A model generated the notes under the pieces. It did no database searches. It worked only from the letters and a program-made list of their open reading frames with translations, and was not told the origin of the DNA. A stretch of DNA of 64,000 nt, from assembly GCA_003193925.1 (NCBI GenBank), contig PSPG01000012.1:32756-96755 (forward strand), given 5' to 3'. Source of the stretch: Candidatus Thalassarchaeum betae (lineage in GTDB: Archaea; Thermoplasmatota; Poseidoniia; Poseidoniales; Thalassarchaeaceae). Below are positions 5,440-49,411 of this stretch, in pieces (positions within the stretch are counted from its first letter, which is position 1; every line of letters starts with the position of its first letter). The position numbers and the translations under genes were made by a program.

Positions 5440-6363
5440 TCACCTCAGTCCGGCTTCCCTCAGGGCCTCTAGTAGCGCCTCGCCTATCTTGGATGGGTCC
5501 CTGGCTATGTGGATGCCAGCCGCCTCGAAAGCGGCGAACTTCTCCTCAGCCGTGCCCTTGCCGCCCGAGATGATGGCACCGGCGTGACCCATCCTCTTGC
5601 CTGGCGGTGCGGTGGCCCCAGCCACGAAGCCGACGAGGGGCTTGGTGAAGTTCTCAGTGACCCATTCGGCCGCATCCTCCTCGGCTGTCCCGCCGATCTC
5701 ACCGATCAACACCACGGCCTCGGTCTCAGGGTCCTCCTCGAAAGCGGCGAGGCAGTCGATGAAACCGGTCCCGCTGACTGGATCACCGCCGATGCCGATG
5801 CAGGTGCTCTGACCCTCGCCCACGCCCATCGTCTGGGCTACCGCCTCGTAGGTGAGAGTGCCCGACCTCGAGATGACCCCGATGCGCCCCTTGGCGTGGA
5901 TGTACCCGGGCATGATGCCAACCTTGCAGCCACCGCTCTCTCCGGGGGTGATTATTCCCGGGCAGTTCGGCCCGATGAGCCTCACTCTCGGCCTCTGGCC
6001 GATGTGAGCGACCACGCGCACCATGTCCAGAATGGGGATACCCTCACTGATGCAGACGATTAGCCCGCCGCCGTTGAGCTCGTGGAAGGCGTCGGCAGCC
6101 TCCATTATCGCCGAGGCTGCGAACCTCGCGGGTACGTAGATGACACTGGCTTCCGCACCGGTCTCCAAGACCGCCTCGGCCATGGTGTCGTAGACAGGGA
6201 CCGAGCGACCCGGTAGGCCGACTGTCTGGCCACCCTTCCCGGGTGTGACGCCGCCGACGATGTCAGTGCCGTATGCCACCATCCTGGTCGCGTGAAACAT
6301 CCCCTGGCTGCCTGTGATTCCCTGTACCAGTATCTTGCTGCCTTCGTGGATCCAGATGCTCAT
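5440..6363 (-). CDS. sucD: Succinyl-CoA synthetase (ADP-forming) alpha subunit
   Basis: 307 aa with CoA-binding and ligase-CoA domains and the catalytic-His region [18 protein letters not shown]. Its start overlaps the sucC stop by 4 nt. Confidence 0.95.
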
Positions 6364-7571: not shown

Positions 7572-7675
7572 AGTGCCCGGGCCGCGATTCGCGCACCGTC
7601 TTTCAACGATGCGCATACGCACCCCGCGTGGCGCGGACGCGAAGCGCTCAAACGGGGTCGCACGCCCGACCCGCC

Positions 7676-22741: not shown

Positions 22742-24060
22742 TGACGATAGTCAAGCCCAGCGACGCGCTGATCCACAAGACGACCCACCTGATGCAGGAG
22801 GGGATGAACGCGAGGGCGTTCGGGGAGTACGAGATGCCGGAGGCCCTCGGCGATGCGCGCTGGACCGACGAACTGATCCTCTCGACATGGTACATGGCCG
22901 AGACCGGCGAGGTCCCGGACGATATGAACTTCAAGACCGGCAAGAGCGACGGCGGCTTCGACAGGCTGCGCTTCCGGTTCTTGGCGGAGGGCGAGTGGCT
23001 GGATCACTCGGAGGACATCGACACCAGCCTGCCTCTGAACCGCCGTGACGATGGGAAGAACGAGATCGAGATCGACATCCCCTGGTACGGCGGCGGGATG
23101 TCCTATGGCTCGGTATCGATCAACGTGATGATGTCCAGGGCCAAGACCGCGAAACTCTGGAACACCTTCATGTCAACTGGCGAGGGCGGCTATCCGACGG
23201 AGCTTTACGAGGTCAAGGAGAACATCATCACCCAGGTCGCCACCGGGTACTTCGGCGTCGAGGAGGAGACCATCCAAGCCGCGCCCATTGTCGAGCTCAA
23301 GTACGCTCAGGGCGCGAAGCCCGGCCTCGGCGGGCACCTGCTCGCAGCCAAAGCCGGCGAGGAGGTCGCCAAAATACGCGGCTCTGTGCCCTTCGTCAGC
23401 CTGTTCAGCCCGTTCCCATTCCACTCCACCTATTCGGTCGAGGACCACTCGAAGCACCTCGACTGGATTGAGATCATCAACCCCACAGCACTGCTCGCGG
23501 TCAAGGTAAGCACACCCCACGACGTCGACATGGTCGCCGTCGGCTCGTACTACGCCGGCGCTCACATCATACACATGGACGGTGGCTACGGCGGTACCGG
23601 AGCGGCTCCTGAGATAGCCAAGAAGAACATCGCGATGCCAATCGAGCTCGCCATCCCGAAGGTGCACAAGTTCCTGCAGAAGGAGGGCGTCCGCGACGAG
23701 GTCACACTGATTGCAAGCGGCGGCGTTCGCACCGCCGACGATATCGCCAAGGCCATCGCCTTGGGTGCGGACGGCTGCGTGCTGGGAACCACCGACCTCG
23801 TTGGGATGGGGTGCACCAGGTGCGCCAATTGCGAGGGAGGCCCGTCCGGCCGCGGTTGCCCATGGGGCCTGACGACAACCGACATCGAACTGCAGGAATG
23901 GCTCCAGCAGGACTGGGGCGTCAAGAGACTCGACAACCTGTACACCGCCATGCAGTGGAGGCTGCGCGATATTCTGCGCAAACTCGGCCTGAACAGCGTT
24001 CAGGAGCTCACGGGCCGTACGGACCTGCTGAGGTACATCGGCAAGGAGGACGGCGAATGA
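22741..24060 (+). CDS. gltB: Archaeal-type glutamate synthase, FMN-binding (GltB domain 2) subunit
   Basis: Motifs QGAKPGLGGHL, FSPFPFHSTYSVED, MDGGYGGTGAAP, ASGGVRTADDIAKAIALGAD, and a CTRCANCEGGPSGRGC 3Fe-4S-type Cys cluster. The true start at 22741 overlaps the previous stop. Confidence 0.9.
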   Translation: MTIVKPSDALIHKTTHLMQEGMNARAFGEYEMPEALGDARWTDELILSTWYMAETGEVPDDMNFKTGKSDGGFDRLRFRFLAEGEWLDHSEDIDTSLPLNRRDDGKNEIEIDIPWYGGGMSYGSVSINVMMSRAKTAKLWNTFMSTGEGGYPTELYEVKENIITQVATGYFGVEEETIQAAPIVELKYAQGAKPGLGGHLLAAKAGEEVAKIRGSVPFVSLFSPFPFHSTYSVEDHSKHLDWIEIINPTALLAVKVSTPHDVDMVAVGSYYAGAHIIHMDGGYGGTGAAPEIAKKNIAMPIELAIPKVHKFLQKEGVRDEVTLIASGGVRTADDIAKAIALGADGCVLGTTDLVGMGCTRCANCEGGPSGRGCPWGLTTTDIELQEWLQQDWGVKRLDNLYTAMQWRLRDILRKLGLNSVQELTGRTDLLRYIGKEDGE

Positions 24061-27953: not shown

Positions 27954-29084
27954 CTACAGATAGGTCCAGACTAGAGCAAGCATATTCCACATCATGTGAC
28001 AAGCAATAGATGGCAATAGACTGCCAGTCCTCATTCTAATCCATCCCCACAGGATTCCGCCAATGAAGATCGCACCCACAGAAAAAGGATCGACATGAAC
28101 CAAACCAAACAGTATAGCGCTCCAAATAATGGCGGTCCAATCACTGTGTTTCCTATTGATTGCGTCAAGAACATATCCGCGGAAAAATAGCTCCTCTGCG
28201 ATCGGAGTTACGATTGCGATTGAAAGAAACAAGAAAGCGATATCGATCGAACTTGACTCCCAATCGGTTCCCAAGTCAATATTGGTAGAAGGCTCACCAA
28301 ATATTCCAAACCACGCAATACCGTAAATCGTAGTAAGAACGAAATTGATTATGGTGACGACGATTGGGATTGCTAAGACTAGAATTAGAGCTCTCTTCAC
28401 TGAACCGAATTTCAGCATCTCCTTAATCCTGTCCAAACTGCCATCGACATAGATGTACAGGAGTACGAGAGGAATCAGAATGATTTCTATCAATAGTGCG
28501 GATATTGAAAATGCCAAACCATCAGACAGACCTGCCCAATAAAGGGCAAACCAAAGTGCCAAGATACCAATAATCGTCAGTAGCCACCATCCTATGAGGA
28601 ATGTGATGATGATTAGCCACGAGACCCATGTTTTGTCACTAGCACCGACGGACTTTTGTTCGACAGATAAGTCAGCTGGAACTCCTTCAAATGCCTCTCT
28701 AAGTGAGCCCTTTCCAGATAGGTCCCAGACCTGCCCAACTGCTGATTTACCATATCCATGCAGCAACCTGCCGATATCCCCCATAGCCAAGTGATCCGGG
28801 TCCTTTGTAATCCGGGAGAGTTTTTTTTCCCGTTCCACTCCGATTCTTGAATTGAAATGCGGTTCGATGTAATTGTAGCAGAAATATATCGCCAAATATA
28901 TCGATAAGATAGACATTAGCAGGAAGGATAGCCAGCCCCCTGCTATCCAAGCATCCACCAAGATTGCAAGGGCGATGATCGACAGAGTCCCTTTAGTGGG
29001 GAAATCTCCAATGAATGCCCTTCCAAACGGCCCCAAAACCTCTTGATTCTCGCCTTGAGGAACGAGTTGAAAATCCTGGTTCAC
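27954..29084 (-). CDS. CPBP (CAAX protease / Abi) family intramembrane metalloprotease with an extended N-terminal membrane domain
   Basis: Motifs EELFFRGY, FGLVH and HMMWN in TM segments. Codon usage is AT-rich relative to the surrounding genes. Confidence 0.8.
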   Translation of the reverse strand: MNQDFQLVPQGENQEVLGPFGRAFIGDFPTKGTLSIIALAILVDAWIAGGWLSFLLMSILSIYLAIYFCYNYIEPHFNSRIGVEREKKLSRITKDPDHLAMGDIGRLLHGYGKSAVGQVWDLSGKGSLREAFEGVPADLSVEQKSVGASDKTWVSWLIIITFLIGWWLLTIIGILALWFALYWAGLSDGLAFSISALLIEIILIPLVLLYIYVDGSLDRIKEMLKFGSVKRALILVLAIPIVVTIINFVLTTIYGIAWFGIFGEPSTNIDLGTDWESSSIDIAFLFLSIAIVTPIAEELFFRGYVLDAINRKHSDWTAIIWSAILFGLVHVDPFSVGAIFIGGILWGWIRMRTGSLLPSIACHMMWNMLALVWTYL

Positions 29085-29090
29085 GGAGAT

Positions 29091-30464
29091 CTATTCCTCT
29101 GAAGAATCACCAATTATCTGCTGCTTCCTCAACTCAGCTTGAAGGGTAACCAGCTCAAGATAAGAAGTTCTAGCCTCGAGGTACTTCTTCATCTCATCCA
29201 AGTAGGACTGCTTCTCGGCGGCGTAAAGACTCCCGTCCCTAGCGTTTGCGTCCATCTTGTACAGTATGGTGAAGAAGAAAAGAGTGAGGACTAGGGGCCC
29301 CAGGAGCATGAGGTAATTATCATCCAGATTGTAGGTGCTACCCTTCACTTCGGTACCGGACCCTAGGATGATGGAAATAATCACTACACTAGGCCATAGG
29401 ATCAGATTCGCGAGCAGCAGGACCCACTCGTAGAGCTCATACTCAGATCTCCTACTGGGTCTGCGTGGTTTGGTAACCGGGGCCTGTTCCATGCGACTAT
29501 CTAACTCGCCCACATGGGGGGTGAGATATGAGGATTCTGCACCATCGTCGGCCGAATCAATGAGTAGAGAGGTATCGATTTCAGAGTCCCTCTTGGGACC
29601 CTTCACTCTATCCCTGTAAAGTGGTATGGAAACAGCAGAGAAGAAACCGAACAGACCTACCGCCGAGGAAACAATAACTGTCCAATCGTAGGAATATTCT
29701 CCTACGTCCACCATCCTGAGGACGAAAGATCCAATGAATACCAATGATAGGTAGTACAACGACTGAAATTTCTTCAGTAGGTAAAGCACAGAGGATAGGA
29801 GCAGAAGAACGACCATCACATCGACGACGCCAGAATGCAATGAGAGCGCGTCAAAGGCCTGGTGAGAATCGAAATCTAACGAAATCAGTTTGGCCCCGAT
29901 TAAGCCGAAGATGGAAATCAGAATCGCAACGTCCTGGCCGGTTTCACCTAATCCCTCAACCATTGAGGAAACAAGACCATGCGAGACTGAGCCCTCGGAG
30001 AGATACGCCAGCCAGAGCGCAGTTTGGAATATCACGGTGGCAGGGATGATGTAAGGAAGGTGAGTACCTACTGCCTTCAAGCCGGATACGATCTTTTTCC
30101 CAGCACCCCTCATCCAGTCCCCCAATCCCGAGGCTTTCTCCGGGATATTGGCATTCTCTACCGAAGACGTGATCCTGCTGCCGAACTTCTCAATCCCCTC
30201 CTGGGTCCTCACCAGAAGAGACTCGGTGTCGGATGAGTCGGAAGCCCCCTCCTCTTCTCCGAAACCTCCCCCTTCTGGTTTCGGGTCCTTGCTGAACTTC
30301 TCCCTTATCGAATCCTCCAGTTTTCTGGAAGCCGCATCCACGGTGTCCAATGCCTTCTTCACCCTAGACTCAAATGAGTCGTCATTGGACTCATCCGCCA
30401 TGTCCGGTGCAACGCATCGCAACCCTTGAATCTCTCGTCGCCTTGGAATCATCATGCAGGACAT
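29091..30464 (-). CDS. Hypothetical membrane protein with an acidic cytoplasmic N-terminus, ~8 TM helices and a C-terminal coiled region
   Basis: 457-aa ORF 7 nt upstream of the CPBP gene with the same low-GC composition. No recognisable family; the start may be the internal MADESNDDS. Confidence 0.5.
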   Translation of the reverse strand: MSCMMIPRRREIQGLRCVAPDMADESNDDSFESRVKKALDTVDAASRKLEDSIREKFSKDPKPEGGGFGEEEGASDSSDTESLLVRTQEGIEKFGSRITSSVENANIPEKASGLGDWMRGAGKKIVSGLKAVGTHLPYIIPATVIFQTALWLAYLSEGSVSHGLVSSMVEGLGETGQDVAILISIFGLIGAKLISLDFDSHQAFDALSLHSGVVDVMVVLLLLSSVLYLLKKFQSLYYLSLVFIGSFVLRMVDVGEYSYDWTVIVSSAVGLFGFFSAVSIPLYRDRVKGPKRDSEIDTSLLIDSADDGAESSYLTPHVGELDSRMEQAPVTKPRRPSRRSEYELYEWVLLLANLILWPSVVIISIILGSGTEVKGSTYNLDDNYLMLLGPLVLTLFFFTILYKMDANARDGSLYAAEKQSYLDEMKKYLEARTSYLELVTLQAELRKQQIIGDSSEE

Positions 30465-39288: not shown

Positions 39289-42200
39289 ATGCGTAGCTTG
39301 ACACCATTCCTCCTGGTCTCCCTCATGCTCATGATGAGTATGGCACCCCTAGCTGTCAACTCTATGATGGACGGGCCTGCGCCCGACCGTTCGGCGACCC
39401 CCAAGGCGCTCATCGATTTCGAAGTGACCTCGATTGAGGTAGGTGAATGGTGGAACTTGGCCGAGCAATGGACCCAGCCGGACAACTCGACAGCGGATTA
39501 CGTGATACGGGATGAGCTCATCCAAGTCAATGTCACATTCACCCAAGCCGGCACCTCCAGCCAGCCCGCGTACGCAGAGGGGTGGATGCAGGTGTGGCAC
39601 CCCGTAGGTTTCCTCATCGAGCAGCATCCCGTCAACATGACCCTGTCGGGGCTCCAATCGGTCACGGAGTCCTTCTACTGGACTCCCGATGCCGCTCACA
39701 GCGCCATTGACGATGACGGCTACCTGTACGGCGGGATAATCCTGCGCGGCACCATCGACGGCGGCCTCGCTGATGACAACGGGGACAACGACGTGCTCGA
39801 CAGGGAAGTTCCGGTAGCCGTCTGGGACGATCCCATGGAGAATGGCTTCTGCGGTGATGTGGACGGCGACCAGATCGTCGACTGCCCCAATATACTCAGC
39901 GCCAACGAGCCCACTTGGGCCGGCGCCGGTTACAATTTAGACGGAACCCTCTCCTCGAACCCCAACCACTACGGGCACTGGAGGATGGACAACGCTTCGA
40001 GCAGCGAGGGCGACATGCATTGGCGAGTGTCCAAGCCTGGTGACAACTACGCCAGCAACAGGCATGACAGGCTGTGGTGGGGCTGGTTCACTACCCTCGG
40101 CACCTGCGAGGATCCGGGCCACGGGCTCAACTTCGGCACTCTCGACTCATCCGTCTCGTCGGTCTACGGGAACGACTTCTGCAAGATCAGAATCAGGTCG
40201 TTCGACTTCATCTCGATGCAATTGGTCACCAACGCTTGGGGCGAGATGGCTGCCGGCGACAACATCCGTATTGAGGCGGACGCGGGCGGGGCGCTGGAGT
40301 ACTACGACTACTCCGCACAGAACATCTCGAAGAACCAAGGTGACTGGACCAAGCTGGTCTGGAACATGACCGACATCCATCCCAATGGCGACTACACCCT
40401 GGCTTTCCGCTTCGATTCGAACAGCTCGTTCGCGAATCAGGGCATCCACCTCGACTCGTTCCTGCTGTTCGGCTTCGAGAAGGTGGCCGAATATACACTC
40501 GACGTCGACTGCAACGACCCCCTGCCGAATGCGTACATGGTAGTCCCCGACGACTCCTGGCCACCCTCGCTCTTCTGTCGCATCAAGAACAACGGATACG
40601 TCGACATCACCCTGCGTCTCTACACCGAGGTCTCGAACAGTACCTGGATGAACGGATACCCACTGAGAATCGACTCCAACAACCAGTTCGACCACGACAA
40701 CTACGTCGTCACAGAGGTCATCCACGCACTCGAATCGATGGACACCTGGTTCAACCTCAGCATCCCAGCAGGCGCCAGTGTCCAGGAGCTGGACTGGTTC
40801 GTCTGGATCAACGACGGGATCACCAACCTCTCCAAGGTCTTCTTGGAGCTGCCCGTATCGGTCATTGCCGCATACTCGGCCAAACTGGAGCAGAAGACCC
40901 TCGCCAATCCCGCTGCGGTACTCTATCCCGGAACCTCCGACAGCGTAGCCATGACGCTGAGGAACACGGGAAATCAAATTGCTACTTGGAACCTCGGCGC
41001 GACCTTCGGTGACAACCGCTGGGGCGCCGAGAATCTGGTGTGGTACGATTCGAACGGCACGGTGATCACAAGTCTGGAGATGAACATCACCGATGACATC
41101 GAGCTGACCGCAGGCCTGACCGCCCCGGATGAGATCACACCGGGAACTTACTCGATTACGCTCCTGGCCAACGGCAGGCCTCCGGCGAACTTCGTGGCGG
41201 ACTGGACCATCTACATCGAGGTACCTGTCTCCCACGACCTCGAGTTGGAGCCCGAGATCACTCATATCATGGCACCAGCCGACGGCTTCCTCAGGCTCAT
41301 CGAGATCAGGATGGTGAACAACGGCAACTCGGAGGAGGCCTTCGGCCTCTCCATACTGGCGGACTGGAAGCTTGGCCTCTCTCTCAACGCGGAGCAGAGC
41401 CTCGGCATCGACCCGTTCGGAGGCGATGCCACGGTCATGCTGCTGCTGCCGATGCCCTACGGCATCGCCAACGAGACCTATGAGATATTCGTGCTGGCAT
41501 CGAGCCTAGACGGATCCGGATACTGGTCCAGCGTGCGGATTCTGCTCACTGTGCCGGTCACGAACCTCGTCGAGGTGGAGGATCTCGACATGCTCCAGGA
41601 GGTCTTCAGAGGTGGAGACGATGCTAGGACGGTAAACTGGGAGATCACGAACAACGGCAATGTGAACGATGCCTTCACCATAGGTTTCGAAACCAGTCAC
41701 CCCGATGTCTGGGTGCAGGCCGCCAGCCTGTCGAACGGCAGGACCCCCTACATCGCACCCGGCTCGTCGCACAACCTGACGGTGCTCTACTCGTTCGGCG
41801 ACACTGCGTTCGGGGACCGCGACATCACCCTCATAGCGACCAGCGTAGGAGCAGCCGATGAGGGCCTTGTTGTTACCGGCAGCGGCACTGCTGAGTTCCG
41901 GGTCGGAAATCAGGGCTGGATTGGACTGGTTCCAACCAATTCACCCCTGACAATCACCGAGAGCGGCGACGACTACGCATTGGTCTTCACCGTGATGAAC
42001 CGCCATCCGACCGACGACCAGCTGCTCCGAGCTGACATCAATCGCAATTCTGACATCTTCTTCAACATTTTCGACGCGCGCGTGCACCAGGACGACAGGA
42101 ACTTCGTCCTGCCCTCGCAGGAGTCCAGGACGATCACGGTGTTCCTCACCGTGACCGATGACAATCTAATGAACCTCGCCGAGAATGAGATGTCGTTCGA

Positions 42201-42762
42201 CATCACCCTCGAAGTGGACAGTGACGTGGACAAGGCCTCGAGCAACGCCACGATAGTGATGGTCAAACCGGAACCCGTGAACACCGGGCCCGACGTCGAG
42301 GAGTACGCTTGGCTGACCGGCAACATCCTGTTCCTGCTGATTGGCCTTGGGGTGATTACCGCCGTCCTCGTCGTATCGTTCAGGATTTTCAAGACCGCGA
42401 CCGCCCCGATGGAAGAGATATCGACGCTCGACACGTACGAGATGACGGTCGATGGAAGCGGTTGGGGCGGGCCCGAGGGGGAGATCCCGGAGGCCCCGAT
42501 GCTACCGGCCGACGACGAAGTGGCGAATTCGATGTACGGCGGTGCTCAGGAGATCTTTGAGCAGTCCCCGGAGATGCCGTCTCCGCCGCCGATGCCCGAG
42601 CCGGAGCCTGAGCCCGAGCCGGAGCCCGAGCCCGAGCCAGAGGGGCCAGAGCTGCCGCCTGGCGTCCCGCCGATACCAGATGATGGCCTTCCTGAGGGCT
42701 GGAGCACCGAGCAGTGGATTCACTACGGTCAGCGTTGGCTGGACCAGCAGAATCGTGAATAA
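39289..42762 (+). CDS. Very large cell-surface protein (signal peptide, ~1000-aa ectodomain, C-terminal TM anchor, cytoplasmic (PE)n tail)
   Basis: 1157 aa with N-terminal signal MRSLTPFLLVSLMLMMSMAPLAV, an Asn/Asp/Thr-rich ectodomain, a TM helix ILFLLIGLGVITAVLVV near the C-terminus, and a MPEPEPEPEPEPEPEGPELPP tail. Confidence 0.6.
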   Translation: MRSLTPFLLVSLMLMMSMAPLAVNSMMDGPAPDRSATPKALIDFEVTSIEVGEWWNLAEQWTQPDNSTADYVIRDELIQVNVTFTQAGTSSQPAYAEGWMQVWHPVGFLIEQHPVNMTLSGLQSVTESFYWTPDAAHSAIDDDGYLYGGIILRGTIDGGLADDNGDNDVLDREVPVAVWDDPMENGFCGDVDGDQIVDCPNILSANEPTWAGAGYNLDGTLSSNPNHYGHWRMDNASSSEGDMHWRVSKPGDNYASNRHDRLWWGWFTTLGTCEDPGHGLNFGTLDSSVSSVYGNDFCKIRIRSFDFISMQLVTNAWGEMAAGDNIRIEADAGGALEYYDYSAQNISKNQGDWTKLVWNMTDIHPNGDYTLAFRFDSNSSFANQGIHLDSFLLFGFEKVAEYTLDVDCNDPLPNAYMVVPDDSWPPSLFCRIKNNGYVDITLRLYTEVSNSTWMNGYPLRIDSNNQFDHDNYVVTEVIHALESMDTWFNLSIPAGASVQELDWFVWINDGITNLSKVFLELPVSVIAAYSAKLEQKTLANPAAVLYPGTSDSVAMTLRNTGNQIATWNLGATFGDNRWGAENLVWYDSNGTVITSLEMNITDDIELTAGLTAPDEITPGTYSITLLANGRPPANFVADWTIYIEVPVSHDLELEPEITHIMAPADGFLRLIEIRMVNNGNSEEAFGLSILADWKLGLSLNAEQSLGIDPFGGDATVMLLLPMPYGIANETYEIFVLASSLDGSGYWSSVRILLTVPVTNLVEVEDLDMLQEVFRGGDDARTVNWEITNNGNVNDAFTIGFETSHPDVWVQAASLSNGRTPYIAPGSSHNLTVLYSFGDTAFGDRDITLIATSVGAADEGLVVTGSGTAEFRVGNQGWIGLVPTNSPLTITESGDDYALVFTVMNRHPTDDQLLRADINRNSDIFFNIFDARVHQDDRNFVLPSQESRTITVFLTVTDDNLMNLAENEMSFDITLEVDSDVDKASSNATIVMVKPEPVNTGPDVEEYAWLTGNILFLLIGLGVITAVLVVSFRIFKTATAPMEEISTLDTYEMTVDGSGWGGPEGEIPEAPMLPADDEVANSMYGGAQEIFEQSPEMPSPPPMPEPEPEPEPEPEPEPEGPELPPGVPPIPDDGLPEGWSTEQWIHYGQRWLDQQNRE

Positions 42763-42842: not shown

Positions 42843-44456
42843 ATGTACAGCGGTCAACAGCCGATTTTCATCCTCAAGGAGGGCACTGACAGGACCACTG
42901 GCCGCTCGGCGCAGAGCAACAACATCGCGGCTGCCAAGGCCGTGGCCGACTCGGTTCGTTCGACTCTGGGCCCCAAGGGAATGGACAAGATGCTGGTTGA
43001 CAGCATGGGCGACGTGGTGATAACAAACGACGGCGCTACCATCCTCAAGGAGATGGACATCGAGCACCCGGCTGCCAAGATGATTATCGAGATCGCCAAG
43101 ACTCAAGAGCAGTACTGCTACGACGGCACGACCAGCGCTGTCGTCATCGCTGGCGAACTTCTCAAGCGCAGCGAGGACCTGATCGAGCAGAACGTTCACC
43201 CGACTGTCATCTGCGAGGGTTTCAGGCTGGCTGCTGACAAGGCTTCCGAGATAATTGACTCGCACTCCTTAGCCGTCGATAAGTCGATGCTCGAGGAGGT
43301 CGCCAAGACCGCACTCACCGGTAAGAGCGCAGGGCCCGTGAAGGAGTTCCTCGCCGACATCAGCGTGCGCGCCGTGCTCTCAGTCGCCCAGGAGGTCGAC
43401 GGCGAGACCGTCGTGGACCTCGACGACATCAAGGTCCATAAGAAGCAAGGCGGCTCAATCCGAGACAGCAACCTCGTCGATGGCATAGTCCTCGACAAGG
43501 AGCGCGTGCACAGTGGGATGCCTCGCAGCGTCTCCGACGCCAAGATAGCGCTCATCAACTCGGCCATCGAGGTCAAGAAGACCGAGGTCGATGCGAAGAT
43601 CCAGATCACCGACCCGGGCATGCTCTCGCAGTTCCTCGACGAGGAGGAGCAGTTCCTCAGGTCCCTCGTCGACAAGATGCAGGCCTCAGGTGCCAATGTG
43701 GTCATCTGCCAGAAGGGGATAGACGACCTGGCCCAGCACTACATGGCCAAGGCCGGTGTCTTCGCCATCCGTCGCGCCAAGAAGAGCGACATGGAGGCGC
43801 TGTCCAAGGCCACTGGCGGGCGGATAGTGACTAACATCGACGATCTCTCCTCGGATGATTTGGGCGCAGCCTCGAAGGTCGAGGAGCGCAAGATCGGCGA
43901 GTCCGACATGGTCTTCGTCACCGGCTGTCCCGAGGCAAAGAGCGTCTCGGTGCTTCTGAGAGGGGGCACGGAGCACGTGGTCGACGAGATTCGAAGGGCC
44001 TTCACCGACGCCATGGGCGTCGTCGCGGTCGCTCTCGAGGACGGCGAGGTCCTGACTGGTGGCGGTTCTGTGGTAGCTGCGATCAGCCGTGACCTGCGCT
44101 CGTACGCAGAGGGGATTGGCGGCAGGGAGCAGATGGCCATCGAAGCCTTCTCCGGTGCCCTCGAGGTCATCCCCCGCACTCTCGCCGAGAACGCAGGACT
44201 CGATCCGATTAACACCATCATCGACCTGAGGAAGGCGCACTCTGAGGGCAAGTCGCACTACGGGGTCAACGTCTATGATGGCGGCGTGACCGACATGAAA
44301 AAGGAGAGGGTCTTCGAGCCGAGCAGGGTGGTCGAGCAGGCCATCCTGAGCGCTTCGGAGACCGCAGTGATGATTCTGAGGATCGACGACGTCATCTCCA
44401 GCCGAAGCACCACGCCCGCTCCCGATGGCACTGACTTCGACGGCCTCGGCATGTGA
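42843..44456 (+). CDS. ths: Thermosome (group II chaperonin) subunit
   Basis: 537 aa with [26 protein letters not shown] and the GDGTT-equivalent region. Full TCP-1/cpn60 architecture. Confidence 0.95.
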
Positions 44457-44570: not shown

Positions 44571-45971
44571 ATGACCATATTCAGCGTTTACATCGATGAC
44601 GGCTGCATCGTCTGCGATGCCTGTGAGGAAACGGCTCCGGATGTCTTCGAAGTGACCGAGGATACCTGCTTCATCAAGCCGGACGTCAGACTCGACGGCG
44701 GCTACGACCGGAACGTGGGCAAGGCAGGCCTGAAGGACGATGTCATCTCCGCCCTCTCAGACGACATCCTCGACGCTGCAGACGGCTGCCCAGTAGACGT
44801 CATCATCGTGGTCGAAGAGGGCGCCGTCGAGGAGCCCCCCGAGCCGGAAGAGGCTGCGGCCCCAGAGCCAGAGGGGGTAGTGGTCGAGGAGGTCGCCGCA
44901 GAGCCAGTGGAGATGAGCGGTATTACGGCCGCGGTGATCCAAGCCGAGATCAGCATATTCCGCTATGACCCGGTCACGGCCACCACTGGCAGGGACACCT
45001 GGATCTGCGCGCTCCCCGGCCACATGTCCGTCTTGGAGGCGCTCAGGGTGCTCAAGGCGACCCACGACGGGAGCCTGACCTTCAGGGACGGTCCTTGCGA
45101 CGACCCGACCACTGCAATCTCGGTGAACGGCAGGCTGGTCCTGCCGGGCAACGTCCGACTCGACTCGGTCGCCCCGAACCGCGAGGGCGGGCTCCGACTC
45201 CGCATCGAACCGCTTCCAGCGTTCGATGTACTGCGCGACCTCACAGTCGACCACTGGTCGCTGGAGCGCAAGCGTGAGTCGGCAAAGCCATGGATGGTGG
45301 CAGCGACCCGTGAGGGGGCTGACACCGCACAGGGGGTCATGGGGACCATGGACCCCGTCAAGGCGACTGGGCTGCACTCGATGACCGACTTCGCGAGCGC
45401 CCCCCTCCTGCACGCCTGCTCTGATGCCACGCCCTACTCCGACGATTACCTCGGGCCGTCCGTGTTGGCAGGCTGCTGGGCTAGGATCAACGACCCGCGG
45501 ACGGCCGACTCGAGCCGCGCCGCGCTGCAGGCGGTGCTGGACTCCCGGAGCGGCATCAAGGCCGAGACTGACTTAGCATCGATCCGCCGTCAGAACGGCT
45601 CCTCGAGGGCCGTGGCCGAGGCCTTGCTGGTTGCACGCACATCGACCCTGTCGAGAGACGCGTTCAACGGCAGGCACGGCAAGCACGTCTGGTGGTACTG
45701 CTGGACGGTCAAGAGCAGCGGCAGGGTCAATGACACAGTCATCTACAGGCAGGTGCTCGGCCCTGTGGGGCTGATGGGCAACCTGTTCTCCGGTGTCACC
45801 GCGCGCATGGTCTTCGGATTCACCCGGACCGGTGGCAGGATGTTCAACGACATGCTCGGCATGTTCGCTCCCCCGGCCGGCATAGGCAAGATGCCCAAGC
45901 AGTTCAATTCCTCAGTCAACAATCATCACGAGGTGGTCGCGATATTCAACGAAGTGGACGGTAGGTTCTGA
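44571..45971 (+). CDS. Fusion of a single-cluster ferredoxin with an SdhB/FrdB-like domain that lacks the canonical [2Fe-2S]/[4Fe-4S]/[3Fe-4S] cysteines
   Basis: N-terminus CIVCDACEE...GCP (CxxCxxC...CP ferredoxin), an acidic PEPEE linker, then ISIFRYDP...LEALRVLK...IEPLPAFDVLRDLTVD which aligns with the SdhB N-domain. The cluster-ligand cysteines are replaced. Confidence 0.55.
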   Translation: MTIFSVYIDDGCIVCDACEETAPDVFEVTEDTCFIKPDVRLDGGYDRNVGKAGLKDDVISALSDDILDAADGCPVDVIIVVEEGAVEEPPEPEEAAAPEPEGVVVEEVAAEPVEMSGITAAVIQAEISIFRYDPVTATTGRDTWICALPGHMSVLEALRVLKATHDGSLTFRDGPCDDPTTAISVNGRLVLPGNVRLDSVAPNREGGLRLRIEPLPAFDVLRDLTVDHWSLERKRESAKPWMVAATREGADTAQGVMGTMDPVKATGLHSMTDFASAPLLHACSDATPYSDDYLGPSVLAGCWARINDPRTADSSRAALQAVLDSRSGIKAETDLASIRRQNGSSRAVAEALLVARTSTLSRDAFNGRHGKHVWWYCWTVKSSGRVNDTVIYRQVLGPVGLMGNLFSGVTARMVFGFTRTGGRMFNDMLGMFAPPAGIGKMPKQFNSSVNNHHEVVAIFNEVDGRF

Positions 45972-46831
45972 TGGCTGTCAAGTACGCTTACCACCCTGGC
46001 AACGTGGCCCACAGCAGCGCTATCGAGGTGGCCGAGACGATGCCCCCAGTCGCAGATTCCCTAGGTATCGAGCTGGTGCCCCTCAAGGGTGCGACGAGTT
46101 GCGGTGCCGGCATCATCCGACAAGCCGGCAGGCGCCTTCAGCTCACCCTCAACGCGCGTACCTTTGCGATGGCCGAGGGACTCGGCCTCGACATCATCAC
46201 CCCCTGCGCCGCCACCGCTGGGAACCTGCACGAGGACCTGACGGTGCTGAAGGAGGACCCAAATCTGCTGGCCGAAATCAACGTGGTGCTGCAGAAGACC
46301 TGCGGCATGACCTTCTCCGGCGAGACCAACGTCCATCACCTTCTGCACGTCATCGTCGACGAAATCGGCCTCGAGAAGCTCGAGGCCGTGGCCAAGAACC
46401 CGATTGACTTCAACGTCGCCGGTTTCTACGGCCCGAACATCCAGCAGTCGGGCGCCTGCGGAGGCGACGATGTGTACGACCCCAGCTACCTCGAGCAGGT
46501 CATAAAGATCCTCGGCGGTACTCCGGTCGAGTGGGAGAGCCGGACCCAGAGCGTCGGAGTCCCCGGTTTGTTCTCTGAGGAGCCGACGGTACTGCGTCAG
46601 TCCGCCGCTGTCCTGTCCGAGGCCAAGTGCGAAGGGGCTGATCTGATTGTCAGTGCCTGCACCCTCTCGCACTCCATCCTCGACGTCTACCAGGGAAAGG
46701 CCTCGCGCACCACGGGGCTTGCGACCAACATACCGGTCATCCACCTGACTGAAATGCTGTCTTACTCGATGGGCCACCACAACTCCAGGCTGGCTCAGTT
46801 GCGCACACGGATCGCAATCATCGGCGACTGA
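45971..46831 (+). CDS. HdrB/GlpC/SdhC-like Cys-rich (CCG) domain protein with degenerate Cys motifs
   Basis: 286 aa with two CCG-like repeats (PGN...SCGAG...PCAATAGN and ...ACGGDD...SACTLS) in which several canonical cysteines are substituted. ATGA overlap with the upstream gene. Confidence 0.55.
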   Translation: MAVKYAYHPGNVAHSSAIEVAETMPPVADSLGIELVPLKGATSCGAGIIRQAGRRLQLTLNARTFAMAEGLGLDIITPCAATAGNLHEDLTVLKEDPNLLAEINVVLQKTCGMTFSGETNVHHLLHVIVDEIGLEKLEAVAKNPIDFNVAGFYGPNIQQSGACGGDDVYDPSYLEQVIKILGGTPVEWESRTQSVGVPGLFSEEPTVLRQSAAVLSEAKCEGADLIVSACTLSHSILDVYQGKASRTTGLATNIPVIHLTEMLSYSMGHHNSRLAQLRTRIAIIGD

Positions 46832-49411
46832 TCACGGGTTAATCTGCTCGCCGCTGCGGAAGGTCCGACATATCTCACGAACCTGGTCTTCCGAGATTCC
46901 ATCGATCTCGCGCAACTCGCCTTCTTCCGCCCATGCGAGAGCTGCGATCGTACCGAACCTGTCCAGCAGACACGCAGCCAGCTCATCGTCTACGCTGGGT
47001 ATGGCCTCCAGCAGTGCTCGTGCGGCGGCTCTGTGATCATCGTGCCGCTGCCGCAACTCCTTCGCACCAGCGGCCGCCTGAGTGACCGGGTCGTTCCAGA
47101 ACTCTGGTCTGACAGCCTCCAACCGCTCGCGCGCGGACTCGCTCAGCCCATCGAGCATCGACTCCTCCCTGCGCGCGGCCACGGTGAGGAATCTGGCGGT
47201 CTCGGACCCGTCCTTCGTGGTGACCACGGGTATCCCGAAGTCAAGGGTCAGGGTGGTGAGCGCACCCATCAGGGCATGAGGGTGGACCCTCGAGTTCTGG
47301 AACAGCCCCTCGCCCTCGATTAGGATCAGCGTTCTGGGGGCGGCTCCGACGAGGCGCGACGCCTGCTCGAGGAGCCGACCGTCGACCAATGAGTCGACGA
47401 AGTCTCTGACAGTCTTCCTCTCGACCAGGATCCTCTCACCGATGCAGAAGTCGCCGGTCTTCAAGCGCTCAATCACCACGTCAGAGCCCAAGGCCCTCAA
47501 ACGGGCTATTACGGCGCTGTTCAACTCACGGTCATCGGCAGTGATGGTAGAGCCGGGAACATCGGGCGGCCCAATCTCCTCCAAGGCGATTAGGTCTCTT
47601 GCGATCGATATCGGGGAGTGGGTCTCCTCGACCTCCTCCTTGGGTTCGGGAGGCTCCCCGACGAACTGCTCGAGCCCGGTCTGACCGCGCGCCCTGAAGG
47701 TCTGCGGGGAGAGGGGGTCAGGGGGACCTCTGACCTCCTTGGACTCGCTGGAATCGACCTCTGAGATCTCCGTTCGGTGGAGTCCTCGCTCCTCGCGGAC
47801 GAACTGCTCTGCCGCGACAGTCGATGCGTCTCCGCGGACTTCGAACTCACCGAGGTTGGATAGGTCGACGTGCGGACTGCGAGGGAGCCTCCTGCGAACG
47901 CGGTGAACAGCGCGCTGCATGAACTCCTCCTTCCTCTCAGCAGCCGCTCTAGCCCCTTCGTCACGGGTGTCCTCGGCGATCAACACGACTACCTCGCCCT
48001 CGCGGTGCCTCCCAGTCCTCCCCCGTCTCTGGATCGTGCGAATCTCACTGGGCACTGGCTCGTAGAAGACGACGAGGTCCGCCCTCGGGATGTCGAGCCC
48101 CTCCTCACCCACCGAGGTGGCGATGAGGACATTGGCCGAGCCGGACCTGAACTCGTCCAGCCTCTCTACCTGCTGCTTCGGGCTCAGCCCGTCTCTGCCG
48201 CCCCGACTCGATTGGCCGACGAACTGTATCGGACGCGCCCCCTCGACCCCCCCCAACGCCTTCTCAATCGCAGCGACGGTGTCGCGGTAGGTGGCGAAGA
48301 CGATGATGCGGGAATCAGCGTCGCGGCGCAGCCTCTCGCGAATTAGCCTCCTGACTGCTCCGACCTTGGTGTGGACCTCTCTCATCTTCTCCAGGCTCCT
48401 GAGCAGACTGGACACCCGTTGGTCCCTCAGGAAGTTCCGAGTCGACTTGGTCCCCGACTGCTCGCCCCGAGACATGCGCTTGAGGAACTGGCTGGAAGCG
48501 GCGATGCCCTGGCACAGCAGGTGGTTGATCAGATGGTGCAGCCTCATCGCCGTAGCGATCCGTGAGACGGACTGGTAAGCGCTGGACTCGCCCCTGGATA
48601 TCGCCGTCTGGGCGCGCTCCATCGCGTTGGAGAGCCCAGCATGGCTGATGAGTCCGGGCATGACGTACCTGCCCAGCCTCTTCTCCCGGTCTACAATCCC
48701 GCTCTGCCACATGACCAGAGGCTCTGCGAGCTCCCTGATCTGGTCCGGCACCCTGACTCTCACCTCCTGTATCTTGAGGCCAGCTAGATGCTTGGACAGC
48801 ATGGCCTCGCTGGCGGCCCTCAGGTGAATCCTCCCGATACCGAGTCTGGAGCAGATCTCCTCGACCTGGTCGGTCTTGGAGCCCGGGCTCGCCGTGGTGG
48901 CGAGGATGAGTGGCTGCGAGGCCTGGGACAGGTATAGGTCACCGACTTGTGCCATCGCGTGGTTACCCGTCGCGTGATGGGCTTCGTCGACTACCAGCAG
49001 TGAGCAGTCAGAGAGGTCGAGAACGCCTCTGAGAACGTCGTTCCTGACGACCTGTGGAGTGGCGACGACCAGTCTGGACGAGCCCCACATGCCGAGGCGC
49101 TTCTTGGCCACGTTCTGCCCGGTAATCGAAATCGGGTTGACAGCCGCGCTGTCGGCGAGGACAGGTTCGATACCGCGCAGGTGCTGGTCCACTAGAGCTA
49201 CGGTAGGGGCGACTATCAGGATCCAGCCATCATCGGTCGCGAGCCTATCGGCGATGACCATCCACGCGACCACTGTCTTTCCAGCCGCAGTGGGCAGTAC
49301 CAGCATCATCGATCCAGACAGCGCCTCATCGGCCGCTTCGAGTTGGTAAGCACGAGCCTCGATGACCTCTGATGAGAGGCCCGGATGGCATACCGTACGC
49401 TGCATGGACAC
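46832..49411 (-). CDS. hef: Hef (helicase-associated endonuclease for fork-structured DNA), an archaeal XPF/FANCM-family protein
   Basis: N-terminal SF2 helicase (LPTAAGKT Walker A, VVDEAHH DEAH box, HRAGRTGR-like motif VI) and C-terminal ERCC4 nuclease (GDFCIGERILVERK...D) plus an HhH2 region. Confidence 0.85.
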   Translation of the reverse strand: MSMQRTVCHPGLSSEVIEARAYQLEAADEALSGSMMLVLPTAAGKTVVAWMVIADRLATDDGWILIVAPTVALVDQHLRGIEPVLADSAAVNPISITGQNVAKKRLGMWGSSRLVVATPQVVRNDVLRGVLDLSDCSLLVVDEAHHATGNHAMAQVGDLYLSQASQPLILATTASPGSKTDQVEEICSRLGIGRIHLRAASEAMLSKHLAGLKIQEVRVRVPDQIRELAEPLVMWQSGIVDREKRLGRYVMPGLISHAGLSNAMERAQTAISRGESSAYQSVSRIATAMRLHHLINHLLCQGIAASSQFLKRMSRGEQSGTKSTRNFLRDQRVSSLLRSLEKMREVHTKVGAVRRLIRERLRRDADSRIIVFATYRDTVAAIEKALGGVEGARPIQFVGQSSRGGRDGLSPKQQVERLDEFRSGSANVLIATSVGEEGLDIPRADLVVFYEPVPSEIRTIQRRGRTGRHREGEVVVLIAEDTRDEGARAAAERKEEFMQRAVHRVRRRLPRSPHVDLSNLGEFEVRGDASTVAAEQFVREERGLHRTEISEVDSSESKEVRGPPDPLSPQTFRARGQTGLEQFVGEPPEPKEEVEETHSPISIARDLIALEEIGPPDVPGSTITADDRELNSAVIARLRALGSDVVIERLKTGDFCIGERILVERKTVRDFVDSLVDGRLLEQASRLVGAAPRTLILIEGEGLFQNSRVHPHALMGALTTLTLDFGIPVVTTKDGSETARFLTVAARREESMLDGLSESARERLEAVRPEFWNDPVTQAAAGAKELRQRHDDHRAAARALLEAIPSVDDELAACLLDRFGTIAALAWAEEGELREIDGISEDQVREICRTFRSGEQINP

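What the first reader, a model, noticed from the sequence alone, without database searches (positions are those of the whole stretch)
44571..46831. Ferredoxin-fused SdhB-like protein and HdrB-like protein that have both lost their cluster-ligating cysteines, with no flavoprotein partner
Gene 1 starts with an intact CxxCxxC...CP ferredoxin. It continues into a domain that aligns with the succinate dehydrogenase/fumarate reductase Fe-S subunit (ISIFRYDP...LEALRVLK...IEPLPAFDVLRDLTVD, compared with E. coli FSIYRYNP...IRPLPGLPVIRDLVVD). The [2Fe-2S] cysteines are replaced (RDGPCDDPTTAISVNG), and the C-terminal 250 aa contain only three Cys. Gene 2 is translationally coupled (ATGA) and resembles HdrB/SdhC-type CCG-domain proteins, but with CCG degraded to SCGAG/ACGG and the first PGC changed to PGN. 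No SdhA/TfrA flavoprotein lies nearby. This looks like a redox-inactive or repurposed derivative of an SdhBC/thiol:fumarate-reductase module retaining a single ferredoxin cluster. I do not know of a described function for such a pair.
Basis: partly seen in the sequence, partly recalled or inferred. Interest (0 to 1): 0.6.

Follow-up and report, generated by a model that had tools for sequence, protein, structure and literature searches.

The report
Cluster-free SdhB/SdhE pair carrying tethered ferredoxin
This two-gene operon, found throughout Marine Group II archaea, descends from the iron-sulfur and anchor subunits of a "type E" succinate dehydrogenase, has lost almost all its iron-sulfur ligands, and instead carries small fused electron carriers (ferredoxin and/or flavodoxin); its function is unknown and databases mislabel it.

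Summary
Gene 1 (44571-45971) is an intact single-cluster ferredoxin, an acidic linker, and a full-length SdhB homologue with 0 of 12 canonical cluster cysteines. Gene 2 (45971-46831) has the HdrB/SdhE fold (TM 0.85) but keeps only 3 of 10 CCG cysteines. No SdhA lies in the window or in 161 related loci.

- The pair is not a relic. It occurs in at least 247 species-level genomes. The 80 best matches shown are all Marine Group II (Poseidoniales). Gene order and synteny are fixed, and dN/dS is 0.03-0.2.
- Nearly all orthologues carry one to three flavodoxin (FMN) domains in front of the SdhB-like part (Fld-Fld, Fd-Fld, Fld). The window lineage lost its flavodoxin cleanly. That loss is real: the identical protein sits on at least 22 independent contigs.
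- The nearest canonical relatives sit in sdhA-sdhB-sdhE operons. The family is therefore a type-E SdhB/SdhE module whose SdhA was replaced by fused carriers.

Two corrections. The true second "CCG" is SVG (S194-V195). With C/D44, C79 and C230 it forms a conserved set that could be a new metal or thiol site. The stop/start overlap is TGATG, not ATGA.

The function is inferred, not shown.

The parts
44571..45971 (+). Gene 1 (466 aa): ferredoxin, acidic linker, then a cluster-free full-length SdhB homologue (SdhB*)
   Evidence: ORF. Pfam Fer4_13 and Fer2_3. Full-length alignment to ~320-aa canonical SdhB. The identical protein is on at least 22 independent contigs.
44571..44825 (+). N-terminal single-cluster [4Fe-4S]-type ferredoxin domain (aa 1-85; C12, C15, C18, C73-P74)
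   Evidence: Fer4_13 34.6 bits against a cutoff of 24.5. The four Cys are invariant in Fd-bearing homologues. dN/dS 0.07-0.09.
44826..44927 (+). Acidic Pro/Glu/Ala-rich linker (aa 86-119). Orthologues carry a ~190-aa flavodoxin domain here.
   Evidence: In alignment A1 the window and P0001 show one clean in-frame gap where 17 homologues have PF00258. The DNA alignment to L002/L003 shows a 555-nt gap whose exact edges are ambiguous in the low-complexity linker.
44928..45266 (+). SdhB* N-terminal domain (aa 120-232), homologous to the [2Fe-2S] plant-ferredoxin-like domain, with 0 of 4 ligands
   Evidence: Fer2_3 34.7 bits. The canonical Cys positions read P175, D178, T181, G193. dN/dS 0.03-0.10.
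45267..45665 (+). SdhB* middle domain (aa 233-365), homologous to the two-cluster ferredoxin domain, with 0 of 8 ligands. Mostly hydrophobic or small residues fill the former ligand positions.
   Evidence: Canonical Cys replaced by F274, A277, L280, S284, E332, L335, I338, N342. S284 and E332 are invariant in 141 sequences.
45666..45968 (+). SdhB* C-terminal extension (aa 366-466). It is the most conserved part of the protein and is homologous to the extension of ~320-aa SdhB proteins that pair with SdhE. It carries a family-specific Gly-rich insert (GFTRTGG...PPAGIGKMP).
   Evidence: Alignment to P0287/P0291. Near-invariance. dN/dS 0.04-0.09. AF2 gives low confidence here. No transmembrane segment (maximum Kyte-Doolittle score 1.2).
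45969..45973 (+). Stop/start overlap TGATG (1-nt overlap), indicating translational coupling
   Evidence: Sequence. The same 1-nt overlap or a spacer of at most 16 nt is seen in the great majority of related loci. About ten have an overlapping upstream start candidate under the first-start rule used.
45971..46831 (+). Gene 2 (286 aa): HdrB/SdhE-fold protein with degenerate CCG motifs (SdhE*)
   Evidence: HdrB E=3.7e-35. AF2 pLDDT 84.6; Foldseek TM 0.85 to 8rvy_B and 5odc_B. 33-34% identity to SdhE of sdhA-sdhB-sdhE operons.
45983..46222 (+). First CCG-domain remnant (aa 5-84): N11, S43, C44, C79, T82, i.e. 2 of 5 Cys kept
   Evidence: This domain is fully intact (C, CC, CxxC) in 11 of 138 family members, and two more keep four of the five cysteines. 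All 13 fall in one sister clade.
46412..46678 (+). Second CCG-domain remnant (aa 148-236): P155, S194, V195, C230, S233, i.e. 1 of 5 Cys kept, plus the family-specific C163 in a 'GACGGD' loop
   Evidence: The second domain is degenerate in all 138 sequences. C230 is invariant. C163 is present in 91%.

Best explanation
What it is (shown):
- A conserved, co-translated two-subunit protein found across Marine Group II archaea (all identified members are Poseidoniales).
- It descends from the sdhB-sdhE genes of a type-E (heme-less, CCG-anchor) complex II operon.
- The SdhB descendant (SdhB*) has lost all three Fe-S clusters. The SdhE/HdrB-like descendant (SdhE*) has lost one or both non-cubane cluster sites.
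- The position of SdhA is taken by one to three small electron-carrier domains fused to the N-terminus of SdhB* through long acidic linkers. These are ferredoxin, flavodoxin or both. In this window there is a single [4Fe-4S]-type ferredoxin, because the flavodoxin was deleted.

How it most likely works (inferred):
- SdhB* no longer conducts electrons. It is an adaptor whose highly conserved C-terminal extension grips SdhE*.
- The only certain redox cofactors are the tethered Fd/Fld modules. They swing on their linkers between a cytoplasmic donor (for example 2-oxoacid:ferredoxin oxidoreductases) and the conserved pocket of SdhE*.
- That pocket is the former quinone/heterodisulfide site. It now holds invariant C79 and C230, C/D44, C163 and many invariant polar residues.
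- Electrons are passed there to a quinone or a thiol/disulfide substrate at the membrane surface, as other CCG-domain modules do.
- The drift from Fd plus an intact CCG cluster to Fld-Fld with no Fe-S ligands at all looks like progressive iron sparing in an iron-poor habitat.
For: Origin:
- Full-length alignment to ~320-aa SdhB, including the C-terminal extension.
- The family profile hits SdhB/FrdB in the PDB at 1e-16.
- The nearest canonical relatives lie in sdhA-sdhB-sdhE operons.
- Gene 2 is 33-34% identical to those SdhE proteins and has the HdrB fold at TM 0.85.
- In an NJ tree the family is monophyletic and sister to canonical SdhE.

Loss of ligands:
- 0 of 12 in 141 SdhB* sequences.
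- CCG2 is dead in 138 of 138 sequences. CCG1 is fully intact in 11, with two more keeping four of five Cys.

Functional constraint:
- At least 247 GTDB species genomes carry it.
- Gene 2 lies directly downstream in every complete locus.
- Synteny is identical even for the most distant member.
- dN/dS is 0.03-0.2 in every segment.

Modular carriers:
- Architectures Fld-Fld, Fd-Fld, Fld, Fd, Fd-Fd and Fld-Fld-Fld were seen. Five were confirmed by Pfam. Fld-Fld-Fld (L155) rests on motifs and the read sequence.
- The flavodoxin domain was lost independently at least twice.
- Fld-only forms occur only alongside a degraded CCG1.

Conserved pocket:
- C79 and C230 are essentially invariant. C163 was gained in 123 of 125 sequences with degraded CCG1.
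- There are many invariant polar residues: Y7, Q51, Q57, H123, Y153, D166, Y173, D238, Y240, Q241, H258, E261.

Established background:
- SdhE is proposed as a monotopic anchor and quinone site (PMC2754724).
- Structural neighbours of the gene 2 model include other CCG-fold proteins, LutA and EtfD. That such modules link dehydrogenases to quinone rests on PMC2754724 and on background knowledge.
Against: - No biochemical, expression or interaction data exist for any member.
- Neither protein has a transmembrane segment. Membrane association was not tested.
- The AF2 model of SdhB* is poor (pLDDT 56.7). No complex model or coordinates could be obtained, so neither the SdhB*-SdhE* interface nor the geometry of the four conserved Cys is known.
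- The donor and the acceptor are guesses.
- Either Fd alone or Fld alone suffices in some lineages. That fits a generic tethered carrier but does not identify a reaction.
- The association of the C163 gain with CCG1 loss rests on few independent events.
Confidence: 0.4

Rival explanations
1. Docking or accessory subunit of another respiratory complex. SdhB*/SdhE* has no acceptor site of its own. It anchors the tethered Fd/Fld next to the authentic SdhA-SdhB of MGII, possibly serving as its only SdhE-type anchor, or next to the NuoEFG-less complex I. In that role it would provide an alternative electron input or output.
For: - KEGG-based pangenomics lists sdhA in 98%/98% and a separate sdhB cluster in 92%/90% of MGIIa/MGIIb genomes. 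It lists only one 'sdhC' cluster (96%/92%) and no sdhD (Tully 2019 supplement).
- JGI labels gene 2 itself as 'SDH cytochrome b subunit'. The single sdhC cluster is therefore probably gene 2.
- The SdhB* N-terminal domain, which contacts SdhA in complex II, is under strong constraint (dN/dS 0.03-0.10).
Against: - No sdhA or canonical sdhB lies within 6-10 kb in any of 161 loci or in the window.
- Gene 1 and gene 2 are translationally coupled to each other, which implies their own 1:1 complex.
- Succinate (+30 mV) cannot reduce Fd/Fld.
- The identity of the Tully gene clusters with these genes was not verified.
Confidence: 0.22
2. The core still binds a metal centre. C/D44 and C79 (domain 1) together with C163 and C230 (domain 2) ligate a new inter-domain Fe-S cluster or Zn. 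The ligands are then 'present but shifted', and SdhE* remains a metalloenzyme fed by Fd/Fld.
For: - Four conserved positions: C79 99%, C230 100%, C163 91%, C44 83% with Asp in the rest. Asp is a known alternative cluster or Zn ligand.
- C163 is a family-specific gain that tracks the loss of CCG1.
- The loops carrying these residues have low pLDDT, as expected for cofactor-dependent loops.
- A Zn site with S3(N/O) coordination was reported in SdhE and HdrB (PMC2754724).
Against: - In HdrB the two CCG sites are separate clusters. Two Cys per site is too few for either cluster type, and the geometry could not be measured.
- 24 sequences have Asp at position 44, and two lack C163.
- Phylogenetic non-independence: one to three events.
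Confidence: 0.15
3. The database labels are correct: gene 2 is the SDH 'cytochrome b'/SdhC subunit, and gene 1 is CysJ (sulfite reductase flavoprotein) or an ordinary SdhB.
For: JGI and KEGG-style names. Pereira 2019 uses those labels for this syntenic pair (PMC6741140).
Against: - Gene 2 has no heme-binding transmembrane helices and has the HdrB fold.
- Gene 1 has no FAD/NADPH (FNR) domain, and in this window it has no flavodoxin either.
- SdhB models score far below their cutoffs (52.7 against 228; 51.5 against 88), and 0 of 12 ligands remain.
Confidence: 0.02
4. The pair is a decaying pseudogene remnant, or the missing flavodoxin is an assembly artefact.
For: Loss of almost all cofactor ligands. 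The window copy is about 190 aa shorter than most orthologues.
Against: - dN/dS is 0.03-0.2, including within the flavodoxin-less lineage (window against L166).
- ORFs are intact in about 160 loci.
- The identical 466-aa protein is on at least 22 contigs from independent assemblies, including a 285-kb contig.
- A 98%-identical variant has the same deletion.
Confidence: 0.01

Closest known systems
Type E ('non-classical') succinate:quinone reductase / methylmenaquinol:fumarate reductase, subunits SdhB and SdhE (Sulfolobus, Acidianus, Campylobacter/Wolinella SdhABE)
   Same: - Gene order sdhB then sdhE.
- A ~320-aa SdhB with a C-terminal extension.
- A ~285-aa two-CCG-domain partner with no transmembrane helices.
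- The nearest canonical relatives are exactly such operons.
- NCBIfam MFR SdhE scores 111 bits.
   Different: - No sdhA.
- All three SdhB clusters are lost. CCG2 is always dead and CCG1 is dead in most members.
- Ferredoxin and/or flavodoxin domains are fused to the N-terminus of SdhB.
- No SdhF-like gene.
- Scores are far below the family cutoffs.
HdrB/HdrC of heterodisulfide reductase (PDB 5ODC, 8RVV)
   Same: Gene 2 has the HdrB fold: TM 0.85, rmsd 2.6 Å, 30% identity, E=3.7e-35. It pairs with a ferredoxin-like subunit encoded directly upstream.
   Different: - Only 3 of 10 cluster cysteines are kept, so the two non-cubane [4Fe-4S] clusters that perform heterodisulfide cleavage cannot form as in HdrB.
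- There is no HdrA.
- The partner is SdhB-derived. The family profile does not hit HdrC.
Thiol:fumarate reductase TfrB (SdhB-HdrB fusion of methanogens)
   Different: TfrB is one fused polypeptide with all clusters and a TfrA flavoprotein. Here there are two genes, no clusters in the SdhB part, and a score of 22.5 bits against a cutoff of 385.
Other CCG-domain modules that pass electrons from a flavoprotein to quinone (EtfD, GlpC, GlcF, LutA)
   Same: The gene 2 model also matches LutA (9a6l) and M. smegmatis EtfD (9ojn) structurally. These modules accept electrons from soluble flavoproteins or carriers, which is the working analogy proposed here. That role is taken from background knowledge and PMC2754724, not tested here.
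   Different: Those proteins keep their CCG cysteines and Fe-S clusters. The similarity is in fold only (13-16% identity).
CysJ-type flavodoxin domain / fused ferredoxin-flavodoxin carriers
   Same: Orthologues carry PF00258 flavodoxin domains at 98-215 bits, which is why pipelines call gene 1 'cysJ'.
   Different: There is no FNR-like FAD/NADPH domain. The window copy has no flavodoxin domain at all.

Membership tests
SdhB/FrdB iron-sulfur subunit (TIGR00384; PF13085 plus Fer4 domains) | Sequence homology across the N-terminal and C-terminal domains | tested here: met
   Fer2_3 34.7 bits against a cutoff of 27. The family profile hits PDB SdhB/FrdB at E about 1e-16 over profile positions 7-242. 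Full-length alignment to ~320-aa SdhB.
SdhB/FrdB iron-sulfur subunit | [2Fe-2S] ligands Cx4Cx2C...C | tested here: not met
   Positions read P175, D178, T181, G193. 0 of 4 in the window. Absent in all 141 family sequences, except a lone Cys at the third position in 6.
SdhB/FrdB iron-sulfur subunit | [4Fe-4S] and [3Fe-4S]/second [4Fe-4S] ligands (two CxxCxxCxxxC(P) motifs) | tested here: not met
   F274, A277, L280, S284 and E332, L335, I338, N342. 0 of 8 in all 141 sequences.
SdhB/FrdB iron-sulfur subunit | Curated whole-protein score cutoffs | tested here: not met
   NF004616: 52.7 against 228. TIGR00384: 51.5 against 88. MFR SdhB: 27 against 600.
SdhB/FrdB iron-sulfur subunit | Encoded with an SdhA/FrdA flavoprotein | tested here: not met
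   No FAD_binding_2 ORF in the window. tblastn with SdhA gives no hit in the window or in 161 loci. Whether SdhA is encoded elsewhere in the genome was not testable here; the literature says yes.
HdrB / SdhE CCG-domain proteins (PF02754 x2; TIGR03288; NF042965) | HdrB fold of two tandem CCG domains | tested here: met
   AF2 pLDDT 84.6, pTM 0.87. Foldseek TM 0.85, rmsd 2.6-3.1 Å to HdrB chains.
HdrB / SdhE CCG-domain proteins | Two CXnCCGXmCXXC motifs (five Cys each) ligating non-cubane [4Fe-4S] clusters | tested here: not met
   The window reads N-SC-CxxT and P-SV-CxxS, i.e. 2 of 5 and 1 of 5. CCG2 is degenerate in 138 of 138. CCG1 is fully intact in only 11 of 138, and two more keep four of five Cys.
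HdrB / SdhE CCG-domain proteins | Curated whole-protein score cutoffs | tested here: not met
   TIGR03288: 127.6 against 345. MFR SdhE: 111 against 500. Pfam CCG passes for the first domain only (31.5 against 20.6).
Single-cluster [4Fe-4S] ferredoxin (PF13370 Fer4_13) | CxxCxxC...CP ligand set and domain score | tested here: met
   34.6 bits against 24.5. C12, C15, C18 and C73-P74 are present and invariant. Cluster occupancy is not testable with these tools.
CysJ sulfite reductase flavoprotein (the label used by annotation pipelines) | Flavodoxin plus FNR-like FAD/NADPH-binding domains | tested here: not met
   No FAD/NAD-binding Pfam hit in any architecture. Flavodoxin is present in orthologues only, not in the window protein.
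TfrB thiol:fumarate reductase subunit B | A single polypeptide fusing SdhB and HdrB modules with all clusters | tested here: not met
   Two separate genes. NF004898: 22.5 bits against a cutoff of 385.

The most novel reading that the evidence does not exclude
The pair is a previously unrecognised, nearly or completely iron-free oxidoreductase that is core to Marine Group II archaea. It would be a complex II electron-transfer module rebuilt so that tethered flavodoxin/ferredoxin domains replace both SdhA and the Fe-S wire. They would deliver electrons directly to a remodelled HdrB-type active site based on cysteines (C/D44, C79, C163, C230) instead of non-cubane clusters. That site would reduce quinone or a disulfide. 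The variation in architecture (Fd plus cluster, then Fd-Fld, then Fld-Fld with no Fe-S ligands) would record stepwise iron sparing in the surface ocean.
Probability: 0.25. Interest if true: 0.75.

Novelty: new variant of a known kind. Interest (0 to 1): 0.55.

Why it matters
Marine Group II archaea are among the most abundant planktonic archaea, and this pair appears to be one of their core genes. The cysJ-labelled gene clusters that probably correspond to gene 1 occur in 100%/99% of MGIIa/MGIIb genomes in one pangenome study. That correspondence was inferred, not verified.

The pair is currently labelled 'SDH cytochrome b subunit' plus 'sulfite reductase flavoprotein'. These labels feed into metabolic reconstructions of complex II and sulfur assimilation, and both are wrong.

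Biochemically, the pair shows that an SdhB/HdrB-type scaffold can stay under strong selection after losing all or nearly all of its iron-sulfur ligands. It has swapped a built-in Fe-S wire for interchangeable tethered carriers.

If the iron-sparing reading is right, the family offers a graded natural series for studying how Fe-S enzymes are rebuilt under iron scarcity: an intact CCG cluster, then a Cys-only site, then a flavin-only protein. It would also be a new candidate route for re-oxidising ferredoxin or flavodoxin in these uncultured heterotrophs.

Tried and rejected
**Looking for the authentic sdhA/sdhB of this organism**
- Walking off the window edge with the look-up of encoding contigs: two look-ups failed on wrong ORF ends. 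The third extended the view 10 kb to the left and found no sdh genes.
- Cluster-member names for ten canonical SdhB hits carried no organism names.
The presence of sdhAB therefore rests on the literature only.

**Structure**
- The AF2 model of the SdhB* part was poor (pLDDT 56.7). Foldseek still ranks SdhB/FrdB chains first but with TM about 0.27. I used this only as weak support.
- No coordinates are returned, so Cys-Cys distances in the good gene 2 model could not be measured.
- The afdb50 library was unavailable.

**Homology to HdrC for the C-terminal half of SdhB***
- The family profile does not hit HdrC in the PDB. I therefore dropped the 'HdrC-like' wording.

**Literature**
- Searches on flavodoxin, HdrB, SDH, Poseidoniales and Thermoplasmatota found no functional description of this family.
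- The only mention is of the synteny, under the wrong names.

**Explanations rejected**
- Pseudogene, assembly artefact, CysJ, canonical SdhB/SdhC and TfrB. See the rival explanations and membership tests.


Full report
**Observation**

The window is from a Marine Group II (Poseidoniales, MGIIb-like) archaeon. It has about 61% GC. The pair sits between a thermosome gene (42843-44456), a convergent Hef helicase-nuclease gene (46832-49411) and the rpl3 ribosomal operon.

Gene 1 (44571-45971, 466 aa):
- It starts with a Fer4_13 single-cluster ferredoxin (34.6 bits, C12/C15/C18/C73-P74). After an acidic linker comes a Fer2_3 domain, above Pfam's gathering score.
- NCBIfam SdhB models align to aa 124-330 but score far below their cutoffs.

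Gene 2 (45971-46831, 286 aa):
- It matches HdrB (TIGR03288, 127.6 bits) and the MFR SdhE anchor (111 bits), both below cutoff.
- It matches solved HdrB chains at E=3.7e-35.
- Its AF2 model (pLDDT 84.6) superposes on HdrB at TM 0.85.

No SdhA-like ORF is in the window.

Two details needed correction:
- The residues homologous to the second CCG are S194-V195 ('QSVGVPG'), not 'GACGGD'.
- The stop/start overlap is TGATG.

**What gene 1 really is**

A search of 1.84 billion representative proteins with aa 120-466 found a small, tight family: 17 clusters below 1e-30. The next tier was canonical SdhB proteins of about 316-320 aa. The alignment with those proteins runs end to end.

So aa 116-466 is a complete SdhB of the type that pairs with a CCG protein. 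All 12 canonical cluster cysteines are replaced. This holds in the window and in all 141 distinct family sequences I collected. Hydrophobic or small residues (F274, L280, L335, I338) and invariant S284 and E332 occupy the old ligand positions.

Two such canonical relatives were looked up. They sit in sdhA-sdhB(323-327 aa)-sdhE(CCG, 281-294 aa) operons. Gene 2 is 33-34% identical to those SdhE proteins, which is closer than to HdrB. In an NJ tree the family is monophyletic and sister to canonical SdhE.

The pair is therefore a descendant of the sdhB-sdhE part of a type-E complex II operon.

**The missing flavoprotein is in cis in nearly all relatives**

Of the 120 closest homologues of gene 1, all but one cluster are 607-662 aa. 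They carry a PF00258 flavodoxin domain between the ferredoxin and the SdhB-like part. The window protein and P0001 (98% identical) have one clean in-frame gap there.

| Source | Architectures found |
|---|---|
| 80 GTDB species genomes | 39 Fld-Fld, 22 Fd-Fld, 14 Fld, none Fd-only |
| More distant metagenome loci and representatives | also Fd-Fd, Fd only, Fld-Fld-Fld |

The flavodoxin domain was lost independently at least twice: once in the window lineage, and once in L092/L097 relative to L086.

The window's flavodoxin-less form is not an artefact. The identical 466-aa protein is on at least 22 contigs from independent assemblies, including a 285-kb contig. A 98% variant shares the deletion.

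**Gene 2 across the family**

At the ten HdrB cysteine positions, 101 of 138 distinct sequences read N-SC-CxxT / P-SV-CxxS, as the window does. Another 24 have Asp in place of C44. The remaining 13 form a separate clade that always carries a ferredoxin domain. Eleven of them keep the whole first CCG motif and two keep four of its five cysteines.

The second CCG motif is dead in all sequences. C79 and C230, the first Cys of each former CxxC, are essentially invariant.

C163 aligns to a lysine in HdrB. It is present in 123 of 125 sequences with a degraded first motif but in only 2 of 13 from the clade that retains the first motif. On the tree this corresponds to only a few events.

Many polar residues are invariant family-wide: Y7, Q51, Q57, H123, Y153, D166, Y173, D238, Y240, Q241, H258, E261.

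The statement 'the cluster ligands are lost' is therefore right for the canonical motifs. A conserved four-residue Cys/Asp set remains, and I could not assess its geometry.

**Not a relic**

- The pair occurs in at least 247 species-level genomes. The 80 best matches shown are all Poseidoniales-type MAGs.
- Gene 2 follows gene 1 in every complete locus, in most cases with the same 1-nt overlap or a spacer of at most 16 nt.
- The synteny aminotransferase ... thermosome - pair - Hef - rpl3 operon is kept even by the most distant member, about 40% identical.
- Pairwise dN/dS is 0.03-0.2 for the ferredoxin, each SdhB* segment and gene 2. Comparisons within the flavodoxin-less lineage involve very few substitutions, so those values (0.03-0.29) are noisier.

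**Literature**

Pereira et al. [quoted passage not shown]

Tully 2019 lists the following for MGIIa/MGIIb genomes (PMC6336850 supplement):

| KEGG label | MGIIa / MGIIb genomes |
|---|---|
| cysJ clusters | 100% / 99% |
| sdhA | 98% / 98% |
| a separate sdhB cluster | 92% / 90% |
| a single sdhC cluster | 96% / 92% |
| sdhD | not listed |

By inference, cysJ is gene 1 and sdhC is gene 2, so an authentic SdhAB exists elsewhere. I could not verify this directly. I found no functional description of the family.

**Mechanism**

Shown:
- The only intact canonical cofactor site in the window pair is the ferredoxin's four-Cys site.
- SdhB* cannot act as an Fe-S wire.
- The carriers are modular and joined by long acidic linkers.
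- The C-terminal extension of SdhB* and the whole of SdhE* are the most constrained parts.

Inferred:
- SdhB* is an adaptor that holds SdhE*.
- The tethered Fd/Fld modules shuttle electrons from cytoplasmic donors to the conserved SdhE* pocket, or to a partner at the membrane surface. This is by analogy with the proposed monotopic-anchor/quinone role of SdhE (PMC2754724) and with other CCG modules that are structural neighbours of the model (LutA, EtfD).
- The series runs from Fd plus an intact CCG1, to Fd-Fld with a Cys-only site, to Fld-Fld with no Fe-S ligand anywhere. It suggests iron sparing.

I put about 0.4 on this reading.

Rivals:
- A docking or accessory subunit of the authentic complex II or another complex (0.22).
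- A shifted metal site in SdhE* (0.15). This is compatible with the main reading but contradicts 'cluster-free'.
- The database labels (0.02).
- Pseudogene or artefact (0.01).

**Verdict**

The family fails the defining ligand tests for SdhB, HdrB/SdhE, TfrB and CysJ, so it should not be filed under any of them. It is a new, undescribed variant built from known parts, core to an abundant group of marine archaea, and of moderate to good interest.

Noticed in passing
window 28001-30000 (ORFs 27954-29084 -, 29091-30464 -): GC drops to 0.469 against about 0.61 elsewhere. The two ORFs are an Rce1-like CAAX protease and a 457-aa protein with no Pfam hit. This may be a horizontally acquired island.
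   Followed up: no
window 39289-42762 (+): A 1157-aa protein with no Pfam hit, an N-terminal signal-like segment, a C-terminal transmembrane helix and a (PE)n repeat tail. A protein of similar size sits at the same place, upstream of the thermosome gene, in the MGII loci where gene tables were inspected, including the most distant one.
   Followed up: partly
window 2999-4318 (-) and 4354-5367 (-): Two tandem squalene/phytoene synthase (SQS_PSY) genes lie next to sucCD (5440-7622).
   Followed up: no
window 46457-46474 (gene 2 aa 163-168, 'CGGDDV'): C163 aligns to a lysine in HdrB. It is present in 123 of 125 family members with a degraded first CCG motif but in only 2 of 13 from the clade that retains that motif. 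With C/D44, C79 and C230 it gives a conserved four-residue set of unknown role.
   Followed up: partly
L081:8840-11833 (MGII REDSEA-S11_B3N4): Gene 1 and gene 2 are read as one 997-aa ORF. The last ~26 codons of gene 1 are missing and the stop is lost ('...APPADGRKILMPLKY...'). This is either a natural fusion or an assembly error in a single MAG. If real, it is Rosetta-stone support for a physical complex.
   Followed up: partly
L092, L097 against L086 (metagenome loci): A second, independent in-frame loss of the flavodoxin domain in a distant clade that still has an intact first CCG motif in gene 2.
   Followed up: yes
L155 (metagenome locus), gene 1 orthologue of 910 aa: An architecture with three tandem flavodoxin domains. 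The first two copies are near-identical, which suggests a recent duplication. It was identified from motifs and the read sequence, not by Pfam.
   Followed up: partly
L169 and L170 (same species as the window), downstream Hef gene: The Hef helicase-nuclease gene is called as 857 aa in the window, L168 and L171. In two other assemblies it is called as shorter or split products (334+523 aa; 517 aa). This may reflect assembly or frameshift differences.
   Followed up: no
window 22555-24060 (+) and 23811-26636 (+): Archaeal-type glutamate synthase domains (Glu_synthase; GXGXG plus GATase) lie on two ORFs that overlap by 250 nt as listed. The true start of the second is probably further downstream.
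   Followed up: no
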